Source of the DNA: Roseburia sp.
Lineage (GTDB): Bacteria > Bacillota > Clostridia > Lachnospirales > Lachnospiraceae
DNA: 64,000 bases
Direction of reading: 5' to 3'
Assembly (NCBI GenBank): GCA_026168605.1
Contig: JAPFDX010000034.1
Span: 12,887 to 76,886, forward strand
The translations under genes and the position numbers were made by a program. The notes under the pieces are model-generated. The model did not search any database, was not told where the DNA came from, and worked only from the letters and a program-made list of their open reading frames with translations. Each line of letters opens with the position of its first letter. Position 1 is the stretch's first letter. This document shows positions 21,844 to 39,708 of this stretch, piece after piece.

Positions 21844-22278
21844 TTACACAACGCCCTTTTGCAGGCTGATATTCGCATAAAGCGCCTTCTCTCCGGTTGC
21901 AATGATCGCATAGGCGGTTTTCGCCTCCTCATAAAAAGCAAACCGCTCAATATTTCCAACCACTGCCGCACCTCTTGCGTCATGCTTTGCGATAATCTCT
22001 TTGTAGGTATCCCATATGGGTGTCTCAACGGTATCGCCCTTCATGACCTCCATCAGATTGACCGGCTTCTCAACGTAGGCGTCTAACGGAAAGACCGTCA
22101 GGATCGCATCTAAAAGTTCCGGTACGCCATGTCCGTCACAGCGGATGACAATGGCGTCTTTTCCCATGGACTCCGACGGAAAATTCCCATCTGCAATAAT
22201 GATTCTGTCACTGTGTCCCATCTCACAGAGTACTTTTAACAGCTCTGGGGAAAGGATTGGTGGTATTCCTTTCAGCAT
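21844..22278 (-). CDS. fucU: L-fucose mutarotase (RbsD/FucU)
   Basis: MLKGI..LCEMGHSD.IIIADGNFP, ERFAFYE, TGE..YAN. Confidence 0.9.
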   Translation of the reverse strand: MLKGIPPILSPELLKVLCEMGHSDRIIIADGNFPSESMGKDAIVIRCDGHGVPELLDAILTVFPLDAYVEKPVNLMEVMKGDTVETPIWDTYKEIIAKHDARGAAVVGNIERFAFYEEAKTAYAIIATGEKALYANISLQKGVV

Positions 22279-22293
22279 ATTCCTCTCCTCCTG

Positions 22294-24087: not shown

Positions 24088-24229
24088 TGTTAAAATCCTC
24101 CTTCTCTCTTTTTCAAAGATTTTCTGATATTTTCATTATACATTTGCTTCCTTTTGATTTCTTGTGTTATAATTACTAAAAATAGGATAATATTCACTTT
24201 TTAGAAGCAACCAACGAAAGGAGTTTTCC

Positions 24230-25084
24230 ATGAAATATCTGGAATATCAGGAACGCCGAAAACAAGGGACCTTTGACTTCCCAATCGCCGTCTACCACGT
24301 CGATGAGAGACATCCACGCTACCAGATGGTCTATCACTGGCATTTCGAATGTGAGCTGATCCGCATTATCCGTGGAAATTTTCCACTCACCGTCAACAAC
24401 AGGCTTTATCATCTTCACGAGGGTGATATCGTCTTTATTCAGGACGGGATGCTCCACGGCGGTATGCCCGACAACTGCATATACGAAAGCCTTGTATTCG
24501 ACATGAAGCTTTTGCTGAAAGACAACCACATCTGCAAAAATCAGATTGAAGCCATTATGAACCATGAGCTTATCATCCACCAGATCCTCCCCGGTGAAAA
24601 CGCATTTCTTCGCCAGATCACAGACACACTGTTTCAGGCAATGTATGCCAAGTACAGCGGCTATGAGTTTATGGTGCAGGGCTCTCTCTATCTCCTCATC
24701 GGCTTCATACTGGAGCACAAACTCTACTCCCTGCGCAGTAAAGAGAAGGAGCAGGTGTCCTATCGTCTCAAACAGTTAAAGCAGGTACTGCGCTATATTG
24801 AAGATCACTATGCCGAGGAGATCACACTGGAAACGCTTGCTTCCATTGCGGGCATGAACCCCAAATATTTCTGCCGCTTTTTCCGGCAGATAACACAGCG
24901 CACTCCCATCGATTACGTCAATTATTACCGCATTGAATGCGCAAGAGAGCAGCTCTCCACGACGGATATGACCATCACGGATGCTGCTCTCAATTGTGGT
25001 TTCAACGATATCAGCTATTTTATTAAAATCTTCAAAAAATACATGGGCGTCACGCCAAAACAGTATGTACTGCAAAAGTACTGA
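24230..25084 (+). CDS. AraC family transcriptional regulator, divergent from fucI
   Basis: N-terminal cupin (YHWH) and C-terminal double HTH (GFNDISYFIKIFKK). Confidence 0.9.
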   Translation: MKYLEYQERRKQGTFDFPIAVYHVDERHPRYQMVYHWHFECELIRIIRGNFPLTVNNRLYHLHEGDIVFIQDGMLHGGMPDNCIYESLVFDMKLLLKDNHICKNQIEAIMNHELIIHQILPGENAFLRQITDTLFQAMYAKYSGYEFMVQGSLYLLIGFILEHKLYSLRSKEKEQVSYRLKQLKQVLRYIEDHYAEEITLETLASIAGMNPKYFCRFFRQITQRTPIDYVNYYRIECAREQLSTTDMTITDAALNCGFNDISYFIKIFKKYMGVTPKQYVLQKY

Positions 25085-25112
25085 TTTGCGGCGCACTGCC
25101 CACAGAGACGTC

Positions 25113-25340
25113 CTACAGCAGATAGACGGGTAGTTCCTCCGTAATCCGGCAGCATCCCCCGATTGTATCCTTCCCCGGCTGCACCTTTCTCCCGGACCTT
25201 TTTCCTCTCGCCGCCGTGGCTGTCTGTCTCTCTGCCGGCTCCACAGTCGTCTGTTCTATGTGCCCCTGCTCTTTTTCAATCTCATCTGCGGCTGACTTTT
25301 TTGCCGCAGCACGCTTAATGCTTCCTGTTCCTACCGGCAT
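25113..25340 (-). CDS. Small ParA-partner-like protein (75 aa): basic N-terminus, disordered middle, hydrophobic C-terminus ITEELPVYLL
   Basis: ATG overlaps the parA 3' end, with AAGGAG upstream; MPVGTGSIKRAAAKK N-terminus. Confidence 0.6.
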   Translation of the reverse strand: MPVGTGSIKRAAAKKSAADEIEKEQGHIEQTTVEPAERQTATAARGKRSGRKVQPGKDTIGGCCRITEELPVYLL

Positions 25341-26121
25341 ACGCTTCTATCTCCTTTGCCAATTCCATATATTCTGCCGCGCTGCGCGCGCTTTTCTTAT
25401 GTGCAGCCACTGGACGGCTGCGATCCTGCGACCACTCGATCTCACTGTCCACACGGATGACCTGCTCAAATACCCGTAAATTTTCTTCTTTTCGGAACGC
25501 TTCCAGCGTCTGTTTATAATAATTCTTCCTTGCGTCTACCTTTGTGATCGCTATGCCAAGCAACGCGAGTTCTCCATTGATCTGACGCACATCTTCAAGA
25601 AATTCAAACATATTCGCCACGCCAAAAAGTCCCCACGGACTCGCTTCGACAGGCATCACCACATAATCTGACGCGCAGAGAATATTCATCACCCAGCTCC
25701 CCAGCGTCGGCGGCGCGTCAATGAGAATATAATCATATTCACCGGACGACTTGATTTCCTGCAGGCATTTGCGCAGGATCAGCTCTCTCTGCCACCGGGT
25801 AAACAGCTCATATTCAATACCGCTCATCAAAATTGTAGAGGGGATCAGATCAAGCTCTTCACAAAAAGTTTTTTTGATATATCCCGTAAGATCATCCTGC
25901 TTCTTAACCCCATAATAAATATTTCTCTCTCCCGACGCAAATTCCAGAACTTTCTCCTCTTCAAAAAAAGATAAGGTCAGATTCATCTGCATATCGCCGT
26001 CGATCAGAAGAACTTTTCTGCCCATGAGCGCAAGCGAATATCCGATATTGGCGCAAGTCGTCGTCTTTCCACTGCCACCCTTATTGTTGGCAAATGCAAT
26101 CGTAATCACTTTCTTCCCCAT
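25315..26121 (-). CDS. Orphan ParA/MinD-family ATPase (Soj-like, no N-terminal HTH); candidate McdA-like
   Basis: Deviant Walker A NNKGGSGKTT, IDGDMQMN, LIDAPP, TKVDARK; start lies inside the deoR 3' end; no parB in the window. Confidence 0.85.
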   Translation of the reverse strand: MGKKVITIAFANNKGGSGKTTTCANIGYSLALMGRKVLLIDGDMQMNLTLSFFEEEKVLEFASGERNIYYGVKKQDDLTGYIKKTFCEELDLIPSTILMSGIEYELFTRWQRELILRKCLQEIKSSGEYDYILIDAPPTLGSWVMNILCASDYVVMPVEASPWGLFGVANMFEFLEDVRQINGELALLGIAITKVDARKNYYKQTLEAFRKEENLRVFEQVIRVDSEIEWSQDRSRPVAAHKKSARSAAEYMELAKEIEAYAGRNRKH

Positions 26122-26875
26122 AAAGACATTCAATCCCTTTTTCTCTGAAATATGCCATCCATTCATCAGACGGCCTTATATCGGTGACAACCAGATCAAT
26201 ATCAGAAATCATGCAGATTTCAGAAAAAGCTACCTTATCAAACTTTGTGTGATCGACCGCCAGTATTTTCTGCTGCGCCGACTCCAGCATTGTCTGCTTT
26301 ACCTGGGAAAACATTTCGTTTGCATCTGTAATCCCTTTTTGCATATCGATCCCCTTACAGGAAAAGACTGCTTTATCTGCATGAAACGAAGCAATCCCTT
26401 TCATGGCGCGCGCGCCCACCAGCGCAAGATAATTTTCTTTTAGCGTTCCCCCGGTGGAAATAACGTCCCACCCGCTTACATCTGCGAGTTCCACCAGCAC
26501 CTCAATGGAATTTGTGATGATCGTCAGACGTTTTCTCTCCTTTAGCTTCTTTACAATGGAAACTGCCGTGGTACTAGGATCAAGGATAATATGGTCGTCG
26601 TCCCGCACGAGCTCTCCGATCAGCTCCGCGATCTTTTGCTTGCCCTTCATATTTTTCTTTTTGCGGATATTAAAGGGCATATCAAAGCTGTTGCTCTCGT
26701 TTAAGACTGCACCGCCGTAGCTTTTTACTGCAAGTCCTTCCTTTTCCAGCTTATCAAGGTCTCTGCGGATCGTCTCCTCGGAGACACCGAATTGTTCTCC
26801 AAGCTCTGAGACGATCACTTTTTTCTCATCCTGAAGCTTCTCTAAAATCAGATTTCTTCTCTCTGCCGCCAGCAT
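26081..26875 (-). CDS. DeoR/GlpR family regulator
   Basis: VSEETIRRDLDKL, YGGA, DPSTT, ITNS, DHTKF. Confidence 0.92.
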   Translation of the reverse strand: MLAAERRNLILEKLQDEKKVIVSELGEQFGVSEETIRRDLDKLEKEGLAVKSYGGAVLNESNSFDMPFNIRKKKNMKGKQKIAELIGELVRDDDHIILDPSTTAVSIVKKLKERKRLTIITNSIEVLVELADVSGWDVISTGGTLKENYLALVGARAMKGIASFHADKAVFSCKGIDMQKGITDANEMFSQVKQTMLESAQQKILAVDHTKFDKVAFSEICMISDIDLVVTDIRPSDEWMAYFREKGIECLYGEESDYDCICQQ

Positions 26876-26952
26876 TCGCTTACCTCCGGTTTTTTGTTTT
26901 CAAGACGCTATCATAAGAGTACGATCAGACCAGTAGAAAACATCCTCCCCCG

Positions 26953-27501
26953 CTAAATGATCGTCCTGCAGATCTTTGGATCCGGATGTGCAATGACTGA
27001 GGAATCTAAAAACATCCCGCTCTCGCCTGCCGCCGCCTTTGCTTTGGCGATCGCCGCCTCACAGGCAGCAACCTCACCGGTCAGCATCACATAGGATTTT
27101 CCGCACATCCCTTTCGCAATGCGAAGCTCAATCAGTTCAACGATCGCCGTCTTTGCCGCAATGTCCGCAGCGACGATCAGCGACGCCGCATCATAGGTTT
27201 CCAGAATTCCAAGTGCGCTCATTTTTTCGACGTGGCTCGTTCCATAAATTGCCGGAAATATGGATTCGTCAGGATTTCCCAGCACAAAGCTGCCGATCAT
27301 CTCCTCCGGTCTTGTGTGCTTCGCACGCTCCACCGCCGCGTTGACTGCGCTCAAATCTCCCGCAATCAGCGCGATATATTTGCCCGGACAAACGGTCTGC
27401 GCTTCTAAAATCTCAACGTCCGCCGTTTTTACCATCTGGTCTGCCGCCAGTACTCCCGCCGATACTGTTTTATATTCTATCATGCCTATTGCCTTTTGCA
27501 T
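26953..27501 (-). CDS. pduT: Tandem BMC shell protein (BMC-T), PduT-like
   Basis: Two BMC domains; TVCPGKY carries the cluster-binding Cys. Confidence 0.85.
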   Translation of the reverse strand: MQKAIGMIEYKTVSAGVLAADQMVKTADVEILEAQTVCPGKYIALIAGDLSAVNAAVERAKHTRPEEMIGSFVLGNPDESIFPAIYGTSHVEKMSALGILETYDAASLIVAADIAAKTAIVELIELRIAKGMCGKSYVMLTGEVAACEAAIAKAKAAAGESGMFLDSSVIAHPDPKICRTII

Positions 27502-27503
27502 AG

Positions 27504-28853
27504 CTACTCCTCACTTCCCGGATGATTTTTGTCCGCTTTAATCACAACGTACTGCGCTGTCACCTCCGTCACCGTCCCGTCGATCGACGCGTGAATGGCG
27601 ACTGAAAGTCCGTCCGCCGCCGACGCAACCGGCATACCACACGTTACCCGGTCACCTGCAGAGACGACCGGCACTGCAGGTGCTCCGATGTGCTGCGACA
27701 GCAAAAGCTTTACCTGCATACATTCCTTTCTCTCATCGGAAAGCGGCGCGTCCTTATCATATGCCGACACACCAAGCCTGGAAGCAAGGCGTTCCTCCGG
27801 CACTCTGCGGTAAGCCCTGGACGTTTTCACGCCGGAAGCTTCCACCACAGGCGGCTTAACGCCCGCCTTGCGAAGTTCAGTCTTATACTCTGTGATCATC
27901 GTGCGCGGAGAAAGTCCCTGCGGGCAACTGTACAGTTCACATAAGCCACACGAACAGCAGAACATCGTATCCAAAAACGGCTCCAGTCCACGAAAATCAC
28001 GGTTTGCGGCTGACCGCATAAACAGATGAGGTGCGATCGGATGCCCCAGCGCGTTTCTCGGACACAGATCTGTGCAGGTCTCACACTGGCAGCAGGCTGA
28101 CGCCGCCCTTCCCACGGAAATCGCAAAACGGCTTTTTTTCTGCAGCACCAGCGGATGCTCCTTTGGCAGGAGCAGGATCGCATTTGTCGTCTTGGTCACT
28201 GCTCCGGTCTCCATGCCCAAATTTCCCATCATCGGACCGCCGAGCATATAAACGGGATCTTCTGTTGTGGCTGCCCCGGCAAGCGCAGCTACCTCACCTA
28301 ACCTCATCCCGACCGGCACACGAACCGTCACCGGATGTTCTACCTCCCCGACCACAGTCACATATTTATCTGTCACCGGATGATCTTCCCACACGGCACG
28401 ATACACGTTATATAACGTCTCCACATTAAAGACAGCCACACCACATTCGATCGGCAGTCCGCCGGGACGCACCACTTTTCCGGTTGCCTCATAGATCAGC
28501 ACGACCTCATCCCCCATCGGATAGGCGCCGGGCAGCCTGTGGATCCTCATTATGGGATATTCTCCCAAAAGCTCCTCCACTGCCTCGATCGTGCTTTTAT
28601 ATTCTTCCTTTATCCCGATAATCGCTTCTTTTGCATGGACTGTCTCTGCGATCAAAGCAAATGCTTTCAAAATCTCACGCGTATGTTCCTTTAATAATTG
28701 TCTGTGGAGCTTTAGGAGCGGTTCGCACTCCGCACAATTCATGAGAATGATATCTGCCTGCTCCGTAAATTTTCCATAAGTCGGAAAACCCGCTCCGCCG
28801 GCGCCGACAATGCCGCTCTCGCGCGCGATCTTACTCAATTCTGCAATTTCCAT
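27504..28853 (-). CDS. pduS: PduS-like flavin/Fe-S oxidoreductase (RnfC-like, SLBB)
   Basis: GIVGAGGAGFPT, CAECEP, CCQCETCTDLCP, CCSCGLCELYSCP, QHIGAP. Confidence 0.85.
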   Translation of the reverse strand: MEIAELSKIARESGIVGAGGAGFPTYGKFTEQADIILMNCAECEPLLKLHRQLLKEHTREILKAFALIAETVHAKEAIIGIKEEYKSTIEAVEELLGEYPIMRIHRLPGAYPMGDEVVLIYEATGKVVRPGGLPIECGVAVFNVETLYNVYRAVWEDHPVTDKYVTVVGEVEHPVTVRVPVGMRLGEVAALAGAATTEDPVYMLGGPMMGNLGMETGAVTKTTNAILLLPKEHPLVLQKKSRFAISVGRAASACCQCETCTDLCPRNALGHPIAPHLFMRSAANRDFRGLEPFLDTMFCCSCGLCELYSCPQGLSPRTMITEYKTELRKAGVKPPVVEASGVKTSRAYRRVPEERLASRLGVSAYDKDAPLSDERKECMQVKLLLSQHIGAPAVPVVSAGDRVTCGMPVASAADGLSVAIHASIDGTVTEVTAQYVVIKADKNHPGSEE

Positions 28854-28859
28854 AAACCT

Positions 28860-29126
28860 CTACACCAGCTTTCCAATATCATCTATGATGCCGACGATAG
28901 CGGCGTCGATCGGCGCATCTGCCATCCCGCAGCCAATGCGCGCAGCACTCCCCTGCGCCACCAGCACATATTCGCCGATCCCCGCTCCGATATTATCAAT
29001 GGCTACCAGACACTTTTTTTCCTCTCCGTTTGTGCCGACCGGCTCGATCACCATAAACTTACTGCCAATCAAATTTTCCTGCTTACGGGTTGAAACGATA
29101 CTTCCAGTTACCTTCCCTATAATCAT
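28860..29126 (-). CDS. BMC pentameric vertex protein (EutN/CcmL/PduN)
   Basis: MIIGKVTGSIVST, VAIDNIGAG.GE.VL, IDAAIVGIID. Confidence 0.92.
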   Translation of the reverse strand: MIIGKVTGSIVSTRKQENLIGSKFMVIEPVGTNGEEKKCLVAIDNIGAGIGEYVLVAQGSAARIGCGMADAPIDAAIVGIIDDIGKLV

Positions 29127-29154
29127 TTCTCTCCCTCATTTCCATCCTTCTGTT

Positions 29155-29811
29155 CTACGCTTTTACGATTACCGCCATATCTCCGCATTTGATGTCGCCG
29201 GCATTTGCCTCATCCGTGTCAATGTGCATCTCCAGCGTAAAGCTTTCATCCACACGGATCTTTACATGCTCAAACATTGTGCCGCGCTCGTTTTCCACCC
29301 GCACGCTCACACGATCTCCATCGCTGACACCGCAGGCTGCGGCATCCTTTGGCGACATATGGATATGCCTTGCCGCAACAATACAGCCTTCCTTGCAGTA
29401 AACCGCTCCTTTCGGCCCCACGATCGCGATTGGCGCAGATGCCTCAATGTCACCGGATTCGCGTACCGGAACGCTGATCCCGAGTTTTCTCGCATCCGTC
29501 GTACTGATCTCCACCTGCGTTGCACTGCGGACAGGTCCCAATACCCTGACATTCTCGATCGCTCTCAATTTCAGACCGACAATCGTGCAGCATTCATTCG
29601 CCGCAAACTGCCCGCCCATCAATTCCTTCTTTTTTGTCAATTGATAGCCTGCGCCAAAAAGAGTCTCCACATCCTCCTGCGTCAGGTGGATATGTCTGGC
29701 GCTCACGCCGACCGGAACCAAGAATCCATCTCCTCTGTCCCGCTCCTTTTGCAGACTTGCAAGCACCATCCGCGTCAGCGCTTCGATTTCATTTCTCTCC
29801 AAATTTTTCAC
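29155..29811 (-). CDS. pduL: Phosphate propanoyltransferase PduL with N-terminal encapsulation peptide
   Basis: VSARHIHL, ARHIHM, MHIDTDEANA; N-terminal NEIEALTRMVLASL; GTG start. Confidence 0.92.
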   Translation of the reverse strand: MKNLERNEIEALTRMVLASLQKERDRGDGFLVPVGVSARHIHLTQEDVETLFGAGYQLTKKKELMGGQFAANECCTIVGLKLRAIENVRVLGPVRSATQVEISTTDARKLGISVPVRESGDIEASAPIAIVGPKGAVYCKEGCIVAARHIHMSPKDAAACGVSDGDRVSVRVENERGTMFEHVKIRVDESFTLEMHIDTDEANAGDIKCGDMAVIVKA

Positions 29812-29828
29812 CTCCCGTTCTCCTTATC

Positions 29829-29875
29829 AAAAAGCACTGCTGCCCAAAATTCCCGGAAGTTTCAGGCGGCAGTGC
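29829..29875 (-). terminator. Intra-operon stem-loop with U-tract between the last BMC-H gene and pduL
   Basis: Minus strand GCACTGCCGCC-N20-GGCAGCAGTGC-TTTTT. Confidence 0.65.
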
Positions 29876-29886
29876 AAACCACACAA

Positions 29887-30165
29887 TTATTTGATTTTCG
29901 GAAGGATACCCTCCACATCCGTGTGCGGTCTTGGGATCACGTGCTGTGCTACAAGCTCGCCAAGTCTCTCTGCATTTGCTGCGCCCGCCTCTACGGCTGA
30001 TTTTACCGCGCCGACGTCGCCGCGCACCATGATCGTCACCAGACCAGAACCAATCTTCTCTGTTCCGACTAGTGTCACGTTTGCAGCTTTACACATCGTA
30101 TCCGCTGCCTCGATCGCTGCCGTAAGTCCCCTTGTCTCCACCATTCCTAATGCTTCCTGTGCCAT
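29887..30165 (-). CDS. BMC-H shell protein, PduA/EutM-like
   Basis: [45 protein letters not shown]. Confidence 0.95.
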
Positions 30166-30177
30166 AATAATTCCTCC

Positions 30178-30561
30178 TTATTCTTTTTCAGCCTTTTCTT
30201 CGTTTCCTTTTTGCCCTGCTTTTTCTTTTCCATCGGATTCCAAGAGTTCCGGCACATCCTCTCTCTTCTTCTGCAGCCGGCTGGCGCTTCTTGCAACCAG
30301 TCGTCTGATCTCCTGACACGGAGCTGCAATGATACCGGATGACGCCAGAATATGAGCATTTTCTCTGCAAATCCGGTCTGCCGCCTCAACAGCCGATTTC
30401 ACATCCGATACATCTCCCTCAACGATAATCGTCACCAGTCTGCCGCCAAGCTTGCGCTCCCATGTGACGAGCGAAACATCTGCTGCCTTACACATTGCAT
30501 CTAAAGAGTTGATTGCAGCAACAATGCCTGAAACCTCGATCAGTCCATATGAGCTGCTCAT
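30178..30561 (-). CDS. BMC-H shell protein with charged C-terminal extension
   Basis: YGLIEVSG, DAMCKAADV, GGRLVT, EGDVSDV, followed by a K/E-rich tail. Confidence 0.85.
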   Translation of the reverse strand: MSSSYGLIEVSGIVAAINSLDAMCKAADVSLVTWERKLGGRLVTIIVEGDVSDVKSAVEAADRICRENAHILASSGIIAAPCQEIRRLVARSASRLQKKREDVPELLESDGKEKAGQKGNEEKAEKE

Positions 30562-30564
30562 AAT

Positions 30565-30852
30565 TTATTTGCCCTGCGGAAATCCCGGAAGGATTTTTTC
30601 CACATCTGTGTGCGGTCTCGGGATCACGTGCTGTGCCACCAGTTCTCCCAGACGGCTTGCCGCTGCTGCGCCTGATTCCACGGACGCCTTCACTGCGCCG
30701 ACGTCGCCGCGCACCATGACTGTGACCAGACCGGAACCGATCTTTTCTGTTCCCACCAGCGATACCTCCGCTGACTTTGTCATTGCGTCTGCTGCCTCGA
30801 TCGCTGCTGTAAGTCCTCTTGTCTCTACCATTCCCAATGCTTCCTGTGCCAT
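30565..30852 (-). CDS. BMC-H shell protein, PduA/EutM-like (paralogue of 29887-30165)
   Basis: Nearly the same protein sequence as 29887-30165. Confidence 0.95.
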
Positions 30853-30902
30853 TTTATTTCCTCTCTTTCCGCCTCTTTGGCTTGTTATACTTTTTTATTG
30901 AT

Positions 30903-31223
30903 TCAGTCTGCGTCAAAAGCGCAGATATCCAGCATTTTCAGCGTATCCTGTGTCGGTCTCGGGATAATGTGACTCTGCACCACCCCGGTAAGCGATTCCG
31001 CCATTGTCCGCCCCGCCTCCACGGCTTCCGTGACATCCTCCACGCTTCCGCGAAATTTGATCGTGACCAGCAGCGGTACTGGCAGCGTGTCTGCATTCGC
31101 CGGCTTGTTTTTATCAAACGGCTCCAGCGTCACATCCGCAGCCTTGCATCCGGCGTCTGCAGCCATAAAAGCCGTACACAGACCGAACACTTCCAAAATC
31201 CCTACTGCTCTCTCATCCATCAA
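30903..31223 (-). CDS. BMC-H shell protein with insertion (DKNKPANADTLPVP)
   Basis: AVGILEVFG, AADAGCKAADV, RGSVEDV, IIPRP. Confidence 0.85.
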   Translation of the reverse strand: MMDERAVGILEVFGLCTAFMAADAGCKAADVTLEPFDKNKPANADTLPVPLLVTIKFRGSVEDVTEAVEAGRTMAESLTGVVQSHIIPRPTQDTLKMLDICAFDAD

Positions 31224-31248
31224 AATGTCCTCCTTCTTTTTGCCTCAC

Positions 31249-32451
31249 TTAATCCGGCAAGACGGCAATCTTTAGTCCCGTCATCGCAAGATTTTTCTGA
31301 TATGCCTCATTGATCCGGCTAAGAGGATATTTATCGGTGATCAGATCCGCGATCGGAAGTCCGATCGCCTTTGCGCTCTTTAAGAAATCAAAGGTGGTCG
31401 CATAATCTCTCAGGGTATAAACCCAGCTTCCGACTGTCGTGATCTCCTTTGCGCAAATATCAAAATGCGGGTTGATCGTCGCATCTCCGCCATTGATGAA
31501 GAATCCAAGTTCACAAAGCCCTCCGCCGTTTCGGATAAACTTATAGATATTGCTGTGTCCTGCCGGAGAGCCGGTACACTGGAACGCAAAATCTGCCAGA
31601 TGACCGTCAAACTGCTTTTTGATTCCCTCTGCCATTTCCTCGGCGCCGTGATAATCAGTAAAATTGACACTGCCAGACGCACCGAGACGCTTTGCAAAAG
31701 ATAGCCTTCCCTCATTTCCATCCACCGCAACGATATTTCCAATTCCCATCGTCTTTAAGATCGCGATGCAGATCAACCCGATCGGTCCGCACCCCTGCAC
31801 GACAACCCTGCTGTTGAATCTTAAAATTCCCGTTGTCTTTGCGCGCTCAACGGCATGGATCAAAACCGCACACGGCTCGATCAAAATGCGTGAATCCAGA
31901 TCCAGCTCGCTGACATTAAAGAATGTCGAACCGCCCCGGATCAGTATGTAATCCGCGAACCAACCGTTTAAATGCACCTCATCATCCGGCAGCAGGCCAT
32001 AGACGTCTGCACCTCCGACATTCTGCTTATTTAGATCAAACATCGTGATGTCCGGGTTGTCTTTAAAGATCATACAAGTGACAATCTTATCGCCTACCCC
32101 CACCGACTTCCCCGCGCTGTCTGTTTTGACATTCTTTCCCATTTTCACGATCTCGCCCGTTCCCTCGTGTCCGAGCGCCACCGGGATCAGTCCGAACGGA
32201 TCGCGCTTAAACTCGTGCGCGTCTGTTCCGCAAATGCCGCATCCCTCTACCCTGACGAGGATATCGTCATCCCCGACCTCCGGCATCGGATATTCCCGAA
32301 TCTCAAAATGCTCCAGGGATGTGAGCATCGCAACGTGCGCCGTCTGCGGAATCCCCACAGCTCCAACGGAAGCCGTTTTTGCTGCAGTTCCCGAAAGATT
32401 GTCAAGCACCTGCTTTACAATCTCTTCCACACAAGAAGCATTTACTTCCAT
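31249..32451 (-). CDS. Zinc-dependent alcohol dehydrogenase (lactaldehyde/propionaldehyde reductase) with encapsulation peptide
   Basis: GICGTD, GHEG, GCGPIG; N-terminal CVEEIVKQVLDNL. Confidence 0.85.
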   Translation of the reverse strand: MEVNASCVEEIVKQVLDNLSGTAAKTASVGAVGIPQTAHVAMLTSLEHFEIREYPMPEVGDDDILVRVEGCGICGTDAHEFKRDPFGLIPVALGHEGTGEIVKMGKNVKTDSAGKSVGVGDKIVTCMIFKDNPDITMFDLNKQNVGGADVYGLLPDDEVHLNGWFADYILIRGGSTFFNVSELDLDSRILIEPCAVLIHAVERAKTTGILRFNSRVVVQGCGPIGLICIAILKTMGIGNIVAVDGNEGRLSFAKRLGASGSVNFTDYHGAEEMAEGIKKQFDGHLADFAFQCTGSPAGHSNIYKFIRNGGGLCELGFFINGGDATINPHFDICAKEITTVGSWVYTLRDYATTFDFLKSAKAIGLPIADLITDKYPLSRINEAYQKNLAMTGLKIAVLPD

Positions 32452-32484
32452 ATTGCTTTACCTCCATATTCTTCCGCGCACCCT

Positions 32485-33876
32485 CTATCGGATGCACAGA
32501 CTGTCTGACATTGTACACCGTCTGCGTTTTGTAAATGTCGCCGCGCTCGTCAGTCCCTCTCCTGTACGGCTTGCAATGGTAAATGTCGGAAATCCCTCCC
32601 CGCCAAAACCAAGCGCCGCATAGGACGGACCGTTCTTTACCAGGATTGCCGTGTCCATCGCTCTTGCATATTCCGTGATCCTGTCAACATTCTTGGAGTG
32701 GATGTGTGCGGAATGACGATTCCCGTGTTCCAGCCACACCGCCTGCTCCACTGCATCTTTGAAATCCTTTGCGCGCACAATTCCAAGGATCGGCATCATC
32801 AACTCCTCCCTGATCAGAGGATGTTCCTTTTCCCCTTCAAAAATAATGCATCGGATATTGTCGGGAACTTCCACTCCTACCATTGCAAGCAACACCTTTG
32901 CACTCCTGCCGACACACTTGCGGTTTAACGCCCCTTTTTCATTCAGCACCGTCGCGATCAGTTTCTCCTGCACTTCTTTTGAAGCCAGATAACACCCTTG
33001 CTCCCGTGTCATATAACGCATCAGTTCATCGCAGATGGCATCTACCGCAACGACCTCCTTTTCCGCAATACACGGAAGGTTATTGTCAAACGTGCATCCG
33101 TTGACGATATCCTCCGCCGCCTTGCGGACGTCCGCCGTCTCATCCACCAGCGCAGGAGGATTTCCTGCGCCTGCGCCGATCCCACGCTTTCCGCTTGATA
33201 AGACTGCCGTCACAACACCCGGTCCTCCGGTTGCAACGAGCAGCGGAATATCCTTATGCTTCATCATCACAGCGCTTGTATCAAGTGTGGGTTTCTCCAC
33301 CGTGCACGCGATGTTGTCCGGTCCTCCCGCCTCAAGCGATGCCTCATTTAACAGATTCACCGCGTAGATGGAAGTGCGGATCGCCTGCGGATGCGGATTA
33401 AATACAACGGTATTCCCGCCTGCAAGCATTCCCATCGTGTTGCAGAGCACTGTCTCGCTTGGATTTGTACACGGTGTGATCGCACCGATCACTCCGAAAG
33501 GTCCCATCTCCACAAGCGTCAGTCCCCTGTCGCCCGACCACGCCGTCGTAACAATGTCCTCTGTTCCCGGAGTCTTTTCCGCCACGAGCAGATGCTTTAA
33601 AATCTTGTCCCCGACATTTCCCATACCGGTCTCCTCGACGCCCATACGCGCCATCGTCTCGGCATTCTCCTTGATTTTTCCCCTCATACTCGTGATAATC
33701 TTCTCTCTCTGGTCCATCGACATCACACGTATCTGTTTTTGCGCTTCCTTTGCATTTTCAATCGCCGTATTCATATCAGAAAATACGCCGTGCAAACCGC
33801 CGGCATTGCCGCTCATCTGCATCTTCGCCATAACTTCCCCGACAATATTTCTGATCTGGCTCTCTGTTATTTCCAA
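32485..33876 (-). CDS. pduP: CoA-acylating aldehyde dehydrogenase PduP/EutE with encapsulation peptide
   Basis: TPCTNPSET, FNPHP, ATGGPGV, GAGNPP, FDNNLPCIAEK, ELMMP; N-terminal SQIRNIVGEVMAKM. Confidence 0.92.
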   Translation of the reverse strand: MEITESQIRNIVGEVMAKMQMSGNAGGLHGVFSDMNTAIENAKEAQKQIRVMSMDQREKIITSMRGKIKENAETMARMGVEETGMGNVGDKILKHLLVAEKTPGTEDIVTTAWSGDRGLTLVEMGPFGVIGAITPCTNPSETVLCNTMGMLAGGNTVVFNPHPQAIRTSIYAVNLLNEASLEAGGPDNIACTVEKPTLDTSAVMMKHKDIPLLVATGGPGVVTAVLSSGKRGIGAGAGNPPALVDETADVRKAAEDIVNGCTFDNNLPCIAEKEVVAVDAICDELMRYMTREQGCYLASKEVQEKLIATVLNEKGALNRKCVGRSAKVLLAMVGVEVPDNIRCIIFEGEKEHPLIREELMMPILGIVRAKDFKDAVEQAVWLEHGNRHSAHIHSKNVDRITEYARAMDTAILVKNGPSYAALGFGGEGFPTFTIASRTGEGLTSAATFTKRRRCTMSDSLCIR

Positions 33877-34346
33877 GCTATCACATCCTTTAATTTGTTT
33901 TTTCCATATCTGCCAAGCATCGTATCCTGCTCGGCCGTTCCACCGCTGACGCCAAGCGCTCCTATCATCAGATCTCCCCGGTAAAGAGGTTCGCCGCCGC
34001 CAAAAATAACAATTTTTCCATCGTTGGTATTCTGGATCCCATACAATTCTCCGCCCGGTGCCGCAAGAGCTGCGAGCCGGTCGGTAGGCATCTGAAACGC
34101 CACAGCCGTATAGGTTTTATTTAACGCCACATCGTAGCTGCCGATATACGCGCCGTCCATACAGTGCACGGCTACCGGTCTTCCCGAGGCGTCCGATACT
34201 GCAACGACGGCTTTCACACCCATTTCTTCCGCCTTTTTCTCAACCTGCCCTATCAAAGCAGTTGCCAGCTTCAAATTCATCGCAGATTTCATTTCAAGCT
34301 CCTGCACAATTTTTTGTACCGCAGCTTCGATGTCCCGATTTTCCAT
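33867..34346 (-). CDS. GlcG/HbpS (PduO C-terminal) heme-binding domain protein with encapsulation peptide
   Basis: VVAVSDASG, MDGA, ALNKTYTA, FGGG.P, GALGVSGG..EQD; N-terminal DIEAAVQKIVQEL. Confidence 0.8.
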   Translation of the reverse strand: MENRDIEAAVQKIVQELEMKSAMNLKLATALIGQVEKKAEEMGVKAVVAVSDASGRPVAVHCMDGAYIGSYDVALNKTYTAVAFQMPTDRLAALAAPGGELYGIQNTNDGKIVIFGGGEPLYRGDLMIGALGVSGGTAEQDTMLGRYGKNKLKDVIAWK

Positions 34347-34366
34347 AGCCCCTCCTGCCTGTCAGG

Positions 34367-35239
34367 CTACTTCATCTCCGCAATGACTTTTCTGACAATT
34401 TCTGCGATCAGCGCCGTATCTGTGCCTGTGCCGGAAGAGGACTGACTTGCGGACGCGGTTTCACGATCGCAGTCACACCCGAAATTGTACTCATATCCAG
34501 GCATATTTCTATATTCTGCAGTTCCACAGCTTCCGCAATTATGACAGTTCTCCCCATCCTTATTTAAACAGAGATTTGCAGGATGTTTGCCCGGAAGCCC
34601 AAACTTACGGCGGATCTCATAGAGTTTTTTGATATTCTCTTTGTCAAATTCCTTCGGTCCGCCGAGCATTTTTGACTTGTAGAGCAGCTCCGCATAAAAT
34701 TCAAGACTTTCCATTTTGTGGTAAGCTGCCAGAAGATCCGTACTCCATGTAAGCGCTCCATGATTTTCCAGAAGCACCGCGTCAAAATATGGCAGATACT
34801 TTTCCAGATTGTCCGGAATTTCCATTGTGGACGGTGTGCCATACTCCGCGATCGGAACACACCCAAGAGCGATCACCGCCTCCGGCATGATCGGCTGTGT
34901 CAGCGGGATACCGGCGATCGCAAAAGCCGTCGCAAAGGTCGGATGCGCATGAACCACAGATCCAATGTCAGGACGCTTCTGATATACACGCATATGCATC
35001 TTGATCTCGGATGACGGCTTAAATCCTTTATTTGCCTGGATCACATCTCCGTTCTCATCCACCTTGCAAATGTACTCCGGCGTCATAAAGCCTTTTGACA
35101 CTCCGGTCGGTGTACATAAAAACTCGTGATCATTCAGCTTCACAGAAATGTTTCCATCGTTGGCAGCAACCATGTTCCGGTTGTAGATCCTTCTGCCAAT
35201 CTCACAAATCTGCTTTTTAATCTCCATTTCGTTTACCAT
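34367..35239 (-). CDS. fucA: Class II aldolase (L-fuculose-1-phosphate aldolase) with Cys-rich linker and C-terminal encapsulation peptide
   Basis: DGNISV, TPTGVSK, PSSEIKMH, VVHAHP, LENHG; C-terminal LIAEIVRKVIAEMK. Confidence 0.85.
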   Translation of the reverse strand: MVNEMEIKKQICEIGRRIYNRNMVAANDGNISVKLNDHEFLCTPTGVSKGFMTPEYICKVDENGDVIQANKGFKPSSEIKMHMRVYQKRPDIGSVVHAHPTFATAFAIAGIPLTQPIMPEAVIALGCVPIAEYGTPSTMEIPDNLEKYLPYFDAVLLENHGALTWSTDLLAAYHKMESLEFYAELLYKSKMLGGPKEFDKENIKKLYEIRRKFGLPGKHPANLCLNKDGENCHNCGSCGTAEYRNMPGYEYNFGCDCDRETASASQSSSGTGTDTALIAEIVRKVIAEMK

Positions 35240-35316
35240 AATGCAGTTCCTCCTAAACTTTTTGTTCTTTTATTGTTGATCACTGCTCCCGCTGCCACAT
35301 GGCAGACGGCAGACAG

Positions 35317-35766
35317 CTATAACTCCCTTACTTCGTCCTGATCTTCCCTCAGGTACGCGAGAATTTCCAACACCCCGGTCCCCGCTTTGGAATTCACATG
35401 AAAAATTGTCTTGCACCCTGCAATCTCAAGCCATCTGTCTGCCAGTGGGATATTGGCTTCCGGCAGGTCTATTTTCGTCACGATCCCAATACAGTCCCGG
35501 TTCGCCTGACAAGTCACATTCGGCGGAAACAAGGAGTACGGCTCATTTGCCGCCACCAAAATCCCAACCACATCCGCCTCATATGTATAAAGTGCCAGAG
35601 CTTTTCCAAGTCTGTGACTCTGCGCATACTCACCCGGCGTGTCAATGACGCTCTCGTAATGTTTCACATACTGTGTCTTATAGTAGCGGATCTCCTCACC
35701 GCGGAGCGCCTGTGTCAGAGTTGTCTTTCCCGCCTGACTTCTGCCCATCAAAATCAGCTTTTTCAT
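35317..35766 (-). CDS. pduV: PduV/EutP small GTPase-like protein
   Basis: GRSQAGKTTL, IDTPGEY, VTKID. Confidence 0.88.
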   Translation of the reverse strand: MKKLILMGRSQAGKTTLTQALRGEEIRYYKTQYVKHYESVIDTPGEYAQSHRLGKALALYTYEADVVGILVAANEPYSLFPPNVTCQANRDCIGIVTKIDLPEANIPLADRWLEIAGCKTIFHVNSKAGTGVLEILAYLREDQDEVREL

Positions 35767-36119
35767 GTCTTTGTGACAGGGCAGACCGTATAACCTAATT
35801 TTTCTTCGACATAATCCCGCATTGCCTCCATTGCGGCATCCACCTCACTGACCGTTCCTGTCAGAATTAAAGATCCGCTGAAACGGTCTACAAAACCAAG
35901 CGCGATCCCACTCGCTTTCATCGCGATATCCGCCATGATGATCGCCGTCTCAGAAGGTGTGACAGTCACCACGCCGATCGCGCCCTTTTCATAGTCGAGA
36001 CGGGGATCCAGACCCAGCTTTTCGTAGAGTGTACGGTCAGGACTTGCAATAATGTGTGCCAGGGTCACCTGACGCCCCGGAACACTCTCCTGAATGATCC
36101 GCATACCATTGTCTATCAT
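35763..36119 (-). CDS. pduU: Circularly permuted BMC-H, PduU/EutS-like
   Basis: RIIQESVPGRQVTLAHII, AIGVVTVTPSE, DRFSGSL; start uncertain (36119 or slightly upstream). Confidence 0.88.
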   Translation of the reverse strand: MIDNGMRIIQESVPGRQVTLAHIIASPDRTLYEKLGLDPRLDYEKGAIGVVTVTPSETAIIMADIAMKASGIALGFVDRFSGSLILTGTVSEVDAAMEAMRDYVEEKLGYTVCPVTKT

Positions 36120-36136
36120 TCTTGTATCCAACTCTC

Positions 36137-36931
36137 TCAGCCTCCAATCTGACATTCCAGCCGCGACACGCTCTCTGCCGTTTTCTTAAGCATCTGCATA
36201 TATTCTGGCTCCGGCGGCAGAATCTCTTTCAGCATATACTCTCTGGAAAGCCTCTCATACTTATCCTGCCCTAATCTGTGGTAAGGAAGGAGATGGATTT
36301 TTTTCACTCCCGGAAGTTTATCCGCGAACTGTGCGATCGCTGCGATCTCCTCCGGTCTGTCATTGAACGTCGGCACAACCGGAACGCGGATCACGAGTTC
36401 CGTCATTCCCGATTCCGCGATTTTTCTTGCGTTTGCAAGCATCAGTTCATTGCGCTTTCCGGTGAACTTCCTATGCTTTTCGGGATCCATGTGCTTGATA
36501 TCCATCAAATATGTATCGAGCCAGGGCAATATCTGTGCGATCGTCTCATATGGCGCACATCCCATACTCTCCATCGCAGTGCCGATCCCGCGTTCTTTCG
36601 CCGCACGGAGCAGCGCCGCTGCAAACTCAGGCTGGCACAGGCTCTCCCCACCGGAAAGAGTCATTCCGCCTCCGCTTTTCCGGTAATAATTCCTATCTTT
36701 CTCGACGACCTCCATGACGTCCTCTACCGTCACATCCCTGCCCATGACCTTGGGTTTGCCGTCGACCATCATGGTCTCTGTCTCAAACTTCTGTGATTCC
36801 GGATTGCAGCACCAGAGACATCGCAGCACACACCCCTTCAAAAACACAATGGTGCGGATGCCGTTTCCGTCATGGATAGAATAACGCTGGATATCAAAAA
36901 TCCTTCCCTTTGTATGTAGCCACTCCTCCAT
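36137..36931 (-). CDS. Glycyl-radical activating enzyme (radical SAM), short form without ferredoxin insert
   Basis: HDGNGIRT, CVLRCLWCCNPES, SGGE, YHRLG; start ATG 36931 behind AGGAGG (the track start at 37171 lies inside the GRE gene). Confidence 0.92.
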   Translation of the reverse strand: MEEWLHTKGRIFDIQRYSIHDGNGIRTIVFLKGCVLRCLWCCNPESQKFETETMMVDGKPKVMGRDVTVEDVMEVVEKDRNYYRKSGGGMTLSGGESLCQPEFAAALLRAAKERGIGTAMESMGCAPYETIAQILPWLDTYLMDIKHMDPEKHRKFTGKRNELMLANARKIAESGMTELVIRVPVVPTFNDRPEEIAAIAQFADKLPGVKKIHLLPYHRLGQDKYERLSREYMLKEILPPEPEYMQMLKKTAESVSRLECQIGG

Positions 36932-36941
36932 ACGCTTCCTC

Positions 36942-39470: not shown

Positions 39471-39562
39471 GGATCCACCTCACATTCACTGCGCATTTAA
39501 AATTCCTCAAAATCCAAAAGGATTTTTTTCTTTTCCCTCACAAATCCAACACTGTTTTCTTC

Positions 39563-39617
39563 ATTATATGTTTATTTGTGTTGTTTGTCAATAACATTAT
39601 GTTGTTTTATGTTGTTT
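39563..39617 (-). promoter_or_regulatory. Consensus sigma-A promoter of the microcompartment operon overlapped by four 10-bp direct repeats (candidate DeoR operator)
   Basis: TTGACA (39586-39591)-N17-TATAAT (39563-39568). Plus-strand repeats: tatgtttatt 39567, tgtgttgttt 39577, tatgttgttt 39598, tatgttgttt 39608. Confidence 0.75.
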
Positions 39618-39660
39618 TTATCATGATGCTTATGAAGAAAAACAAAAATATCCTTTTGAA

Positions 39661-39695: not shown

Positions 39696-39708
39696 GCCCT
39701 CTTATTTC

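What the first reader, a model, noticed from the sequence alone, without database searches (positions are those of the whole stretch)
25113..26875. Candidate McdAB-like positioning system for a glycyl-radical fucose metabolosome
Seen: the microcompartment operon ends pduS-pduT-deoR-parA-orf75, with deoR/parA and parA/orf75 overlapping. ParA has a deviant Walker A KGGSGKT, no N-terminal HTH, and retains Arg at the Soj-like DARK position. No parB is in the window and I saw no parS. Orf75 has a basic N-terminus (GSIKRAAAKK), a low-complexity middle and a hydrophobic C-terminus (CCRITEELPVYLL). Established: McdA (ParA) and McdB (small partner) space carboxysomes on the nucleoid, and ParA partners generally use a basic N-terminus; the Ser-containing KGGSGK variant is, as I recall, typical of McdA. 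Inference: this pair positions or segregates catabolic GRM5 microcompartments in a gut clostridium, with ELPVYLL replacing the Trp-containing shell-binding tail of known McdBs.
Basis: partly seen in the sequence, partly recalled or inferred. Interest (0 to 1): 0.8.

Follow-up and report, generated by a model that had tools for sequence, protein, structure and literature searches.

The report
ParA and adaptor for fucose microcompartments
At the end of a fucose/rhamnose microcompartment operon of a gut Lachnospiraceae bacterium sit a ParA-type ATPase and a small disordered partner that look like the system that spaces carboxysomes, a kind of pairing already proposed in the literature for such loci but never tested.

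Summary
The minus strand reads GRE, activase, shell and enzyme genes, pduS, pduT, deoR, parA, orf75, with 41-nt and 26-nt overlaps.

orf75 is a genuine gene. A partner ORF overlaps the ParA stop in 78 of 81 loci. Its N-terminus (MxVGxGSIKRAAK) and C-terminus (ELPx[Y/H]LL) are conserved. The middle is a variable Ala/Lys/Glu/Thr-rich segment of roughly 35-220 residues.

Across 301 Lachnospiraceae genera the ParA orthologue occurs in 33. All 33 have BMC shell genes (88/301 overall). 32 of 33 have the orthologous glycyl-radical enzyme (52/301). The pair is physically linked to the operon in only about a third of those genera.

The ParA keeps its Walker motifs and the Soj DNA-binding Arg. By sequence it is nearer Soj than the solved McdA-like protein.

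The best reading is a McdAB-like nucleoid-ratchet system for GRM5-type metabolosomes. Function is inferred, not shown.

The idea is not new. MacCready 2021 and Basalla 2024 reported putative McdA/McdB-like genes at GRM and PDU loci with C-terminal Tyr/Phe.

New here are the co-occurrence numbers, the motif definitions, His replacing Tyr in 43% of partners, and a variant carrying a ParB N-terminal domain.

The parts
25113..25340 (-). orf75: McdB-like adaptor, 75 aa. N-terminal MPVGTGSIKRAAAKK (25296-25340), disordered middle, C-terminal CCRITEELPVYLL (25116-25154).
   Evidence: The ORF is and the AAGGAG RBS (25351-25356). Homologous partners occur in 78/81 loci with invariant M1 G4 S7 R10 and P(-5). 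Gene callers call it in related contigs. AF2 gives a helix at 5-23, a middle at pLDDT ~50, and a C-terminus at pLDDT ~80 without secondary structure. No Pfam or NCBIfam family matches.
25315..26121 (-). ParA/MinD-family ATPase, 268 aa, McdA-like by context. Walker A KGGSGKT at 26062-26082; Arg198 (Soj DNA-binding Arg equivalent) at 25528-25530.
   Evidence: Pfam AAA_31 7e-51 and CbiA 1e-19. Orthologues at 56-83% identity are a group distinct from other ParA paralogues, which are at most 36% identical over full length. The best PDB relatives are Soj-type ParAs.
26081..26875 (-). DeoR-family regulator. Its stop overlaps the parA start by 41 nt.
   Evidence: HTH_DeoR + DeoRC. NCBIfam AgaR/GlpR/FucR-like hits are all below the family cut-offs. 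The deoR-parA order is conserved in about 70 of 80 related loci. A DeoR regulator is listed as a GRM5 ancillary gene by Axen 2014.
26953..29126 (-). PduT-like BMC-T (26953-27501), PduS-like flavoprotein (27504-28853), EutN/CcmL BMC-P (28860-29126).
   Evidence: Pfam results.
29155..31223 (-). PduL phosphotransacylase (29155-29811) and four BMC-H shell genes (29887-30165, 30178-30561, 30565-30852, 30903-31223).
   Evidence: Pfam PTAC and BMC.
31249..35239 (-). Zn-ADH (31249-32451), aldehyde dehydrogenase (32485-33876), HbpS-like/DUF336 (33867-34346), class II aldolase (34367-35239).
   Evidence: Pfam. This enzyme set matches the GRM5 description in Axen 2014.
35317..36155 (-). PduV/EutP small GTPase (35317-35766) and a further BMC-domain protein (35763-36155).
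   Evidence: Pfam PF10662 1e-47 and BMC 2e-13.
36137..39470 (-). Glycyl-radical enzyme (36942-39470) and its radical-SAM activase (ORF 36137-37171, true start uncertain).
   Evidence: Pfam PFL-like 4e-249 plus Gly_radical; Radical_SAM plus Fer4_12.

Best explanation
parA and orf75 encode a two-protein, McdAB-like system dedicated to the fucose/rhamnose glycyl-radical (GRM5-type) microcompartment.

Proposed mechanism (inferred):
1. ATP-bound ParA dimers coat the nucleoid through non-specific DNA binding, using Arg198 and a conserved basic C-terminal patch.
2. orf75 docks on the microcompartment shell through its conserved C-terminal ...ELP[V/I][Y/H]LL tail.
3. Its N-terminal helix (V3, G4, S7, I8, K9, R10) contacts the ParA dimer and triggers ATP hydrolysis and release from DNA.
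4. The resulting ParA depletion zones drive a Brownian ratchet that keeps microcompartments apart, spread over the nucleoid and inherited by both daughter cells.
5. The Lys/Ala/Thr/Glu-rich disordered middle acts as a flexible, perhaps condensate-forming, linker.

What is shown here: the genes, the conserved motifs, their pairing, and their strict co-occurrence with this BMC type.

What is inferred by analogy with carboxysome McdAB: DNA binding, shell binding, ATPase stimulation and positioning.
For: 1. Context. The pair closes the GRM operation unit in the window. Among the 80 closest species-level relatives, about 68 have ParA in or within ~10 kb of the same GRM operon, usually as ...PduS-PduT-DeoR-ParA-partner. 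The same order appears in contigs found through the partner.

2. Co-occurrence across one genome for each of 301 genera of the family.
- The ParA orthologue is in 33 genomes.
- All 33 have BMC-P, against 88/301 overall (Fisher p = 1.5e-20).
- 32 of 33 have the GRE orthologue at >=62% identity, against 52/301 overall (p = 2.7e-28).
- Within BMC-positive genomes, ParA is in 32/51 GRE-positive and 1/37 GRE-negative genomes (p = 1e-9).
- All 12 'unlinked' genomes checked also carry BMC shell genes (11 have seven or more BMC-domain hits, one incomplete MAG has a single hit).

3. Partner architecture matches McdB.
- It lies immediately downstream of, and overlapping, the ATPase gene.
- It has a conserved basic N-terminus with a predicted helix at residues 5-23. 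In H. neapolitanus McdB the first 20 residues, with K7, are necessary and sufficient for McdA binding.
- It has a disordered low-complexity middle.
- It has a conserved C-terminal motif with Tyr/His at -3. Published McdB-like proteins at GRM and PDU loci have Tyr/Phe in the last 4-5 residues.

4. The ParA keeps Walker A, A' and B and the Soj-type DNA-binding Arg. It is an extra copy beside the chromosomal Soj-Spo0J pair.

5. There is no ParB, parS or centromere-like repeat at the locus.
Against: - No experiment exists for any metabolosome McdAB-like system. In Salmonella, Pdu BMC distribution was unaffected by heterologous H. neapolitanus McdAB or by deletion of parA or minD.
- At genus level only about 12 of 32 pairs lie within 20 kb of the GRE. 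The rest are far away or on other contigs.
- About 40% of GRE-orthologue genomes (20/52) lack the ParA, so it is dispensable for the organelle.
- Four ParA orthologues (L069, L071, L075, L083) have no partner ORF downstream. The genome-wide search of three of those genomes (G006, G007, G161) found no partner elsewhere either.
- The defining Trp of carboxysome McdB is absent, and the corresponding position is His in 43% of partners.
- By sequence the ATPase is closer to Soj (E 1e-28) than to the solved cyanobacterial McdA-like protein (E 8e-11).
- The co-occurrence tests are not corrected for phylogeny.
- Transcription together with the BMC genes could not be shown.
Confidence: 0.68

Rival explanations
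1. The pair is functionally tied to the GRM microcompartment but does not position it on the nucleoid. It could instead act in shell assembly or number control, or as a nucleoid tether or condensate scaffold in which the Lys/Ala-rich middle of the partner itself binds DNA, with ParA acting only as a switch.
For: The middle region is 19.6% Ala, 18.6% Lys and 11% Thr, with a median pI of 9.7. Two homologues hit Pfam PF07382 in the precomputed domain list, which is the histone H1-like HC2 family by my recollection of that accession, not a tool result. The locus already has a PduV/EutP GTPase, itself a proposed positioning factor. The system is absent from 40% of genomes with the orthologous GRE.
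Against: The window's own orf75 has a short middle without AKK repeats, so the H1-like character is not conserved. H. neapolitanus McdB alone does not bind DNA. All ParA catalytic and DNA-binding residues are conserved, as expected for a ratchet ATPase.
Confidence: 0.15
2. The deoR-parA-orf75 unit is a regulatory module. ParA and its partner would modulate the DeoR regulator, or transcription of the fucose/rhamnose regulon, rather than acting on the organelle.
For: deoR and parA overlap by 41 nt. The deoR-parA-partner trio stays together in several loci where no BMC gene was found in the available upstream flank, up to 10 kb (L032, L040, L044; L033 and L052 have only ~1 kb of upstream sequence). 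ParA-family proteins are known to double as transcriptional co-regulators in plasmid systems (own knowledge).
Against: Many pairs occur with no deoR nearby (L063, L068, L076-L080, L084-L086, L091). This ParA has no HTH. The partner has no DNA-binding domain, but it does have a conserved cargo-type C-terminal tail.
Confidence: 0.07
3. This is a remnant or active DNA partition module of a mobile element or chromosome that merely hitch-hikes with the BMC island.
For: By sequence the ATPase is a Soj-like small ParA. One relative (L046) has a partner with a ParB N-terminal domain. BMC loci are known to be horizontally transferred.
Against: The window has no parS, no HTH-bearing ParB and no centromere repeats. 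There is one copy per genome beside a normal Soj-Spo0J. The orthologue group is conserved at 56-83% identity across 33 genera. It co-occurs with the BMC even when encoded 80-880 kb away or on other contigs, which hitch-hiking cannot explain.
Confidence: 0.05

Closest known systems
alpha-McdAB of Halothiobacillus neapolitanus (carboxysome positioning)
   Same: A small ParA with the signature Lys is followed directly by a small, almost fully disordered monomer-type partner. The partner N-terminal ~20 residues are predicted helical and basic: K7 in Hn McdB, K9/R10 here. A short conserved C-terminal motif carries one key ring-bearing residue flanked by acidic residues. The genes are encoded in or next to the BMC operon.
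   Different: The cargo is a catabolic glycyl-radical metabolosome in an anaerobic Firmicute. The C-terminal residue is Tyr or His, never Trp, within an LPx[Y/H]LL tail. There is no detectable sequence homology of the partner to any described family. The ATPase is not shown to be orthologous to alpha-McdA.
Putative McdA/McdB-like genes at GRM and PDU loci (MacCready et al. 2021, Fig. 8f; Basalla et al. 2024, Fig. 4)
   Same: The concept is the same, and these are very probably the same or a sister set of proteins: McdB-like ORFs next to ParA-like genes in or near GRM operons, with a conserved Tyr/Phe within the last 4-5 residues.
   Different: The figures are not held, so identity with this family could not be checked. 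The papers do not report the invariant N-terminal motif, the His alternative at -3, the strict link to the aldolase/GRE (GRM5) type, or the frequent physical unlinking from the BMC locus. None of these proteins has been tested.
Soj/ParA-Spo0J/ParB chromosome partition
   Same: The best sequence relatives of the ATPase are Soj-type (8RAY 1.6e-28, T. thermophilus Soj 4.5e-28). The same Walker motifs and DNA-binding Arg are present. The partner's N-terminal xVGxGSIKRA resembles, in style, the own Spo0J N-terminus AKKGGLGKGIDSLI. One relative's partner retains a ParB_N domain.
   Different: Identity to the genome's own Soj is only 30%. The partner has no HTH or dimerisation domain, and there is no parS. 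The distribution follows a metabolic organelle, not replicons.
PduV/EutP small GTPase
   Same: It is the other NTPase proposed to position metabolosomes and is encoded in the same operon (35317-35766).
   Different: It has an unrelated fold and mechanism, and it is present in GRM loci both with and without the ParA pair.

Membership tests
McdA (maintenance of carboxysome distribution ATPase) | ParA/MinD-family ATPase with a deviant Walker A box | tested here: met
   AAA_31 7e-51 and CbiA 1e-19. NKGGSGKTT, the DGD and IDAPP motifs are invariant in 81 orthologues.
McdA (maintenance of carboxysome distribution ATPase) | Encoded with its partner inside or beside the BMC operon it serves | tested here: met
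   This holds in the window and in about 68 of the 80 closest species. At genus level it holds in only about 12 of 32 genomes, but co-occurrence with BMC genes is 33/33.
McdA (maintenance of carboxysome distribution ATPase) | Sequence clustering with characterised alpha- or beta-McdA rather than with other ParAs | tested here: not met
   A PDB search gives Soj-type ParAs at 1e-28 and the Cyanothece McdA-like protein (6NOO) at 8e-11 over a partial stretch. No alpha-McdA reference sequence was available for a tree. McdA types are themselves heterogeneous.
McdA (maintenance of carboxysome distribution ATPase) | ATP-dependent non-specific DNA (nucleoid) binding and oscillating or graded localisation | not testable with these tools
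   Only the conserved Arg198 (Soj-equivalent) and the basic HKKSARSA patch are seen.
McdB (carboxysome adaptor) | Small protein encoded immediately downstream of the ATPase gene | tested here: met
   75 aa with a 26-nt overlap on the parA stop. A partner is present in 78 of 81 loci.
McdB (carboxysome adaptor) | Basic N-terminal ~20 residues that bind and stimulate the ATPase | tested here: inconclusive
   The sequence feature is met: invariant G4, S7 and R10, K/R at position 9, and an AF2 helix at 5-23 with pLDDT ~82. Binding and stimulation were not testable.
McdB (carboxysome adaptor) | Predominantly disordered, low-complexity, biased composition | tested here: met
   The middle is A/K/E/T-rich with 0% Trp and GRAVY -0.66. 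AF2 pLDDT is about 50 for residues 21-60. Length varies from 63 to 248 aa.
McdB (carboxysome adaptor) | Invariant C-terminal tryptophan within the last ~5 residues | tested here: not met
   Position -3 is Tyr in 42, His in 33 and Phe in 1 of 76 partners, and there is no Trp in the tail. This fits the published 'McdB-like, non-carboxysome' class with Tyr/Phe, except for His.
McdB (carboxysome adaptor) | Binds the BMC shell and co-localises with the organelle | not testable with these tools
   No multimer prediction or experiment is available here. The only indirect evidence is the unique, conserved tail.
GRM5 microcompartment locus (Axen 2014) | Glycyl-radical enzyme plus activase, class II aldolase, DeoR regulator, PduS, DUF336 protein, shell genes, in Lachnospiraceae-type Firmicutes | tested here: met
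   All of these were found by Pfam in 26081-39470. The GRM5 description was read. The relatives' records are Roseburia, Acetatifactor, Agathobacter and Blautia.
Type I ParABS DNA partition | ParB with HTH/CTPase domains and cognate parS centromere | tested here: not met
   The partner has no Pfam domain. There is no parS and there are no repeats. Only one relative (L046) has a ParB_N domain, and it lacks an HTH.

The most novel reading that the evidence does not exclude
The partner family may be a ParB-derived adaptor that has lost everything except the ParA-activating N-terminal peptide. It would have gained a new shell-docking tail, ELPx[Y/H]LL, whose key residue can be His. That would imply a docking chemistry different from the Trp/Tyr 'aromatic plug' proposed for McdB. 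The system would be specific to aldolase-type fucose/rhamnose metabolosomes (GRM5, and one GRE-less aldolase BMC) and would work in trans from anywhere in the genome. If so, it would be the first defined positioning system for a catabolic microcompartment in gut anaerobes, and its 14-residue tail would be a portable tag for addressing proteins to the outside of GRM shells.
Probability: 0.3. Interest if true: 0.6.

Novelty: new member of a known kind. Interest (0 to 1): 0.42.

Why it matters
How catabolic microcompartments are spaced and inherited is still open, because only carboxysome McdAB has been tested. GRM5 organelles let abundant gut Lachnospiraceae turn host- and diet-derived fucose and rhamnose into propionate and propanol. 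A dedicated ParA/adaptor pair would be the handle for studying, or engineering, organelle number and inheritance in these bacteria.

This work supplies:
- a sharply defined family of 624 clusters of small partner proteins;
- exact motifs to mutate (R10, P-5, Y/H-3);
- a clean comparative signal (33/33 with BMC genes, 32/33 with the GRE);
- natural controls, namely GRM genomes without the pair and ParA orthologues without a partner.

It does not overturn anything. It substantiates a published conjecture.

Tried and rejected
- **RNA evidence.** Two 'metatranscriptomic' runs hold the region, but as 15-98 kb contigs with flat depth. That indicates DNA carry-over, so nothing can be said about co-transcription.
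- **Promoter/terminator scan of 24000-28000.** No minus-strand terminator after orf75 and no promoter before deoR or parA. The scan is too crude to conclude from.
- **Exact-sequence look-up of three partner homologues.** None was in the collection. The profile and word searches later showed that such genes are called, and that the only source name shown for any of them is 'hypothetical protein'.
- **Phylogeny against McdA, MinD and ParC.** Not done, because no reference sequences could be brought in. It was replaced by a PDB sequence search and by paralogue identities within 13 genomes: orthologues at 66-71% against other full-length ParAs at <=36%.
- **Published figures.** MacCready 2021 Fig. 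8f and Basalla 2024 Fig. 4, which list the GRM/PDU McdB-like tails, are not held, and the supplement has no such list. Identity with this family therefore remains probable, not proven.
- **Plasmid/ICE partition module.** Considered and rejected: no parS, no repeats, no ParB, a single copy, and co-occurrence in trans.
- **Chance ORF.** Considered and rejected for orf75, given the RBS, the conservation of both ends in 76 complete sequences, and 624 clusters in the global library.
- **AF2-multimer of partner with ParA or shell proteins.** The tool folds single chains only.
Full report
**1. What is in the window**

The minus strand between 39470 and 25113 is one co-directional gene string. Pfam assigns the genes as follows.

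| Coordinates | Assignment |
|---|---|
| 36942-39470 | glycyl-radical enzyme (PFL-like 4e-249 plus Gly_radical) |
| 36137-37171 | radical-SAM activase |
| 35763-36155 | BMC-domain protein |
| 35317-35766 | PduV/EutP GTPase |
| 34367-35239 | class II aldolase |
| 33867-34346 | HbpS-like/DUF336 protein |
| 32485-33876 | aldehyde dehydrogenase |
| 31249-32451 | Zn alcohol dehydrogenase |
| 29887-31223 | four BMC-H genes |
| 29155-29811 | PduL |
| 28860-29126 | EutN |
| 27504-28853 | PduS-like protein |
| 26953-27501 | PduT-like tandem-BMC protein |
| 26081-26875 | DeoR regulator |
| 25315-26166 | ParA-type ATPase, longest ORF |
| 25113-25340 | orf75 |

Beyond orf75 lie a convergent AraC-family gene and then fucI, fucU and a FGGY kinase. 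Upstream lie a sugar ABC transporter and an alpha-L-fucosidase. This is the GRM5 composition described by Axen et al. 2014: GRE, aldolase, DeoR, PduS and DUF336, found in Roseburia, Ruminococcus and C. phytofermentans.

**2.

- Homologues align from Met16 of the long ParA ORF, and gene callers start there. ParA is therefore 25315-26121 (268 aa).
- deoR overlaps parA by 41 nt and parA overlaps orf75 by 26 nt. The related contigs L087 and L089 show the same two overlap lengths.
- orf75 has AAGGAG 10 nt before its ATG.
- Walker A is NKGGSGKTT. There is no HTH.
- Arg198 in VDARKN aligns with the Arg of the genome's own Soj and is invariant in 81 orthologues.
- There is no parS within two mismatches and there are no centromere-like repeats.
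- The genome has a single BMC locus. Its ordinary Soj-Spo0J pair is on another contig, and that Soj is 30% identical to this ParA.

**3. orf75 is a real, conserved gene**

I fetched 80 species-level loci through the ParA (66-76% identity; Acetatifactor, Roseburia, Agathobacter, Blautia and unnamed Lachnospiraceae).

- A partner ORF that starts just before or at the ParA stop exists in 78 of 81 loci, counting the window.
- Across 76 complete sequences the lengths run from 63 to 248 aa, with a median of 115. The window's 75 aa is among the shortest.
- Mean column identity is only 16%, yet several positions are fixed:
  - M1, G4, S7, R10 and the Pro at -5 are invariant.
  - V3, I8, A11 and Leu at -2 exceed 90%.
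  - Position 9 is K or R in 65 of 76.
  - Position -6 is L or M.
  - Position -3 is Tyr in 42, His in 33 and Phe in 1.
  - The last residue is L or M in 74.
- Two tail classes occur: C[H/R][L/I]TEELP[I/V][H/Y]LL and YG[I/V]GQ[E/Q]LP[V/I][Y/H]L[L/M].
- The middle is 19.6% Ala, 18.6% Lys, 12.3% Glu, 11% Thr and 0% Trp. Median pI is 9.7.
- In the window's own genome, the tail pattern ends exactly one of 36,610 open frames, and that frame is orf75.
- A profile of the family finds 624 cluster representatives among 1.84 billion, at E <= 1e-3. All of the 150 listed are small, and nearly all are matched end to end.
- A word-indexed search finds 65 clusters. They have no Pfam domain except PF07382 in two. 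The only source name given is 'hypothetical protein'.
- AlphaFold2 with the family alignment predicts a helix at residues 5-23 (pLDDT about 82), a middle at about 50, and a C-terminal 15 residues at about 80 without regular secondary structure.

**4. Link to the microcompartment**

*(a) Close relatives.* Using tblastn with the window's proteins, about 65 of the 80 loci show ...PduS-PduT-DeoR-ParA at the 3' end of the same GRM operon. Further loci are cut by contig ends or have insertions. L038, for example, has about 9 kb inserted between PduT and DeoR.

*(b) Position is not fixed.*
- ParA follows PduV in L078.
- ParA lies immediately upstream of the GRE in L083.
- The pair lies 2.5 kb upstream of the operon in L084.
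- ParA lies about 8 kb upstream of the GRE in Faecalicatena (L069).
- In the sampled genomes where both lie on one contig, ParA is ~27, ~80 or ~880 kb from the nearest BMC locus marker (shell gene, GRE or EutN; G005/G011, G051, G198).
- In many genomes the pair and the BMC locus are on different contigs.

*(c) Genus-level phylogenetic profile.* I used one genome for each of 301 genera of the family.
- The ParA orthologue (E <= 1e-80, 56-70% identity) is present in 33.
- BMC-P (PF03319) is present in 88.
- The GRE orthologue at >=62% identity is present in 52.
- All 33 ParA genomes have BMC-P (Fisher p = 1.5e-20).
- 32 of 33 have the GRE orthologue (p = 2.7e-28).
- Among BMC-positive genomes, ParA occurs in 32 of 51 with the GRE and in 1 of 37 without (p = 1e-9).
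- These tests are not phylogenetically corrected.
- The single exception, G146, has the pair with the tail ...WDMPDYLL. It lies about 20 kb from an aldolase-PduL-EutN-PduS-PduT BMC locus that has no GRE and several BMC-P genes.

*(d) Unlinked genomes.* All 12 'unlinked' genomes examined separately carry BMC shell genes. Each has exactly one high-identity ParA orthologue, next to paralogues of at most 36% identity over full length.

Taken together, the pair behaves as an accessory of the fucose/rhamnose aldolase-type metabolosome. It can act in trans, and it is absent from about 40% of genera that have the organelle.

**5. What the ATPase is**

- Pfam places it in AAA_31/CbiA. No NCBIfam model reaches its cut-off.
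- Against all PDB sequences, the best relatives are chromosomal Soj-type ParAs: 8RAY at 1.6e-28 and Thermus Soj at 4.5e-28.
- The Cyanothece McdA-like structure scores 7.9e-11 over a partial stretch.
- It is therefore McdA-like by context and presumed role, not by demonstrable orthology.

**6. Mechanism proposed**

The mechanism follows carboxysome McdAB.
1. ParA-ATP dimers bind the nucleoid.
2. The adaptor binds the shell by its C-terminal tail.
3. The adaptor's N-terminal basic helix stimulates ParA hydrolysis and release from DNA.
4. The resulting depletion zones drive ratchet-like spacing.

The analogy is specific on two points.
- In H. neapolitanus McdB, the first 20 residues form a predicted helix and are necessary and sufficient for McdA binding. 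K7 is critical, and L4, L8 and I12 contribute. Here the invariant residues are V3, G4, S7, I8, K9, R10 and A11, at the N-terminal end of and just preceding a predicted helix spanning residues 5-23.
- In both carboxysome McdB types, a C-terminal Trp-containing motif flanked by acidic residues mediates organelle binding, and Tyr can substitute. Here the tail has Glu-Glu or Gln-Glu, then Leu-Pro-x-Tyr/His-Leu-Leu.

Everything beyond sequence and context is inference.

**7. Comparison with the literature and novelty**

- Axen 2014 already listed ParA (PF01656) among ancillary BMC-locus Pfams.
- MacCready et al. 2021 (section 2.9, Fig. [quoted passage not shown] - Basalla et al. 2024 (Fig. 4) name PDU and GRM and show logos with Tyr/Phe in the last five residues.
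- A 2026 paper still treats these as putative. It found that Salmonella Pdu BMC distribution was unaffected by heterologous H. neapolitanus McdAB or by deletion of parA or minD.

The window is a new member of that kind.

- the size and sharp definition of the partner family;
- the invariant N-terminal motif;
- His as a frequent alternative to Tyr;
- specificity for the GRM5/aldolase type;
- frequent physical unlinking combined with strict co-occurrence;
- orphan ParA orthologues without a partner (L069, L071, L075, L083; three of these genomes searched);
- one relative whose partner carries a ParB N-terminal domain between the N-terminal motif and an ...SLPAYLL tail (L046; ParB_N 5.8e-10), which hints at a ParB origin.

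**8. Verdict**

My confidence that this is a BMC-dedicated, McdAB-like positioning or partition system is about 0.68. Interest is moderate.

Noticed in passing
L046:10779-11324 (+): In one Lachnospiraceae MAG the ParA partner is 181 aa. It has the usual N-terminal motif (xAVGKESILRA), a ParB N-terminal domain (PF02195, 5.8e-10) and the usual tail ...SLPAYLL. This is a possible evolutionary intermediate between ParB and the minimal adaptor.
   Followed up: partly
L081:5278-6320 (-) and L082:5900-12700: Genome G146 has the ParA plus a partner with tail ...PIDVWDMPDYLL. It has no GRE orthologue. Its BMC locus, about 20 kb away, is aldolase-PduL-EutN-PduS-PduT-BMC-H with three BMC-P genes, a GRE-less (PVM-like?) type.
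   Followed up: partly
L069, L071, L075 (ParA at 10001-10790); L083:14813-15565 (-): ParA orthologues with no partner ORF downstream. In three cases an AraC-family gene follows directly. A profile search of three of these genomes found no partner elsewhere, although positive controls were detected.
   Followed up: yes
L076:4977-6122, L077:11348-12493, L091:10381-11526: Where the pair is unlinked from the BMC locus in Blautia-like genomes, it is followed by an Fe-dependent alcohol dehydrogenase. This may be a lactaldehyde/propanediol oxidoreductase, so a metabolic link to fucose may persist.
   Followed up: no
window 35317-35766 (-): A PduV/EutP-family GTPase, itself proposed in the literature to position Pdu BMCs, is encoded in the same operon. 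The locus therefore carries two candidate positioning NTPases.
   Followed up: no
window 22000-40000 (runs X2, X20): Two runs labelled metatranscriptomic RNA-Seq give contigs of 15-98 kb that cover the region with flat depth. This indicates substantial DNA in those libraries.
   Followed up: partly
P0285, P0314 (partner homologues): Two partner homologues carry precomputed hits to PF07382. By my recollection that accession is the histone H1-like nucleoprotein HC2 family. The hits reflect the Lys/Ala-rich repeats of the middle region, which the window's orf75 lacks.
   Followed up: no
L038:2792-7996 (+): A 1734-aa ORF is inserted between PduT and deoR-parA in one Acetatifactor MAG, splitting the pair from the operon by about 9 kb.
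   Followed up: no
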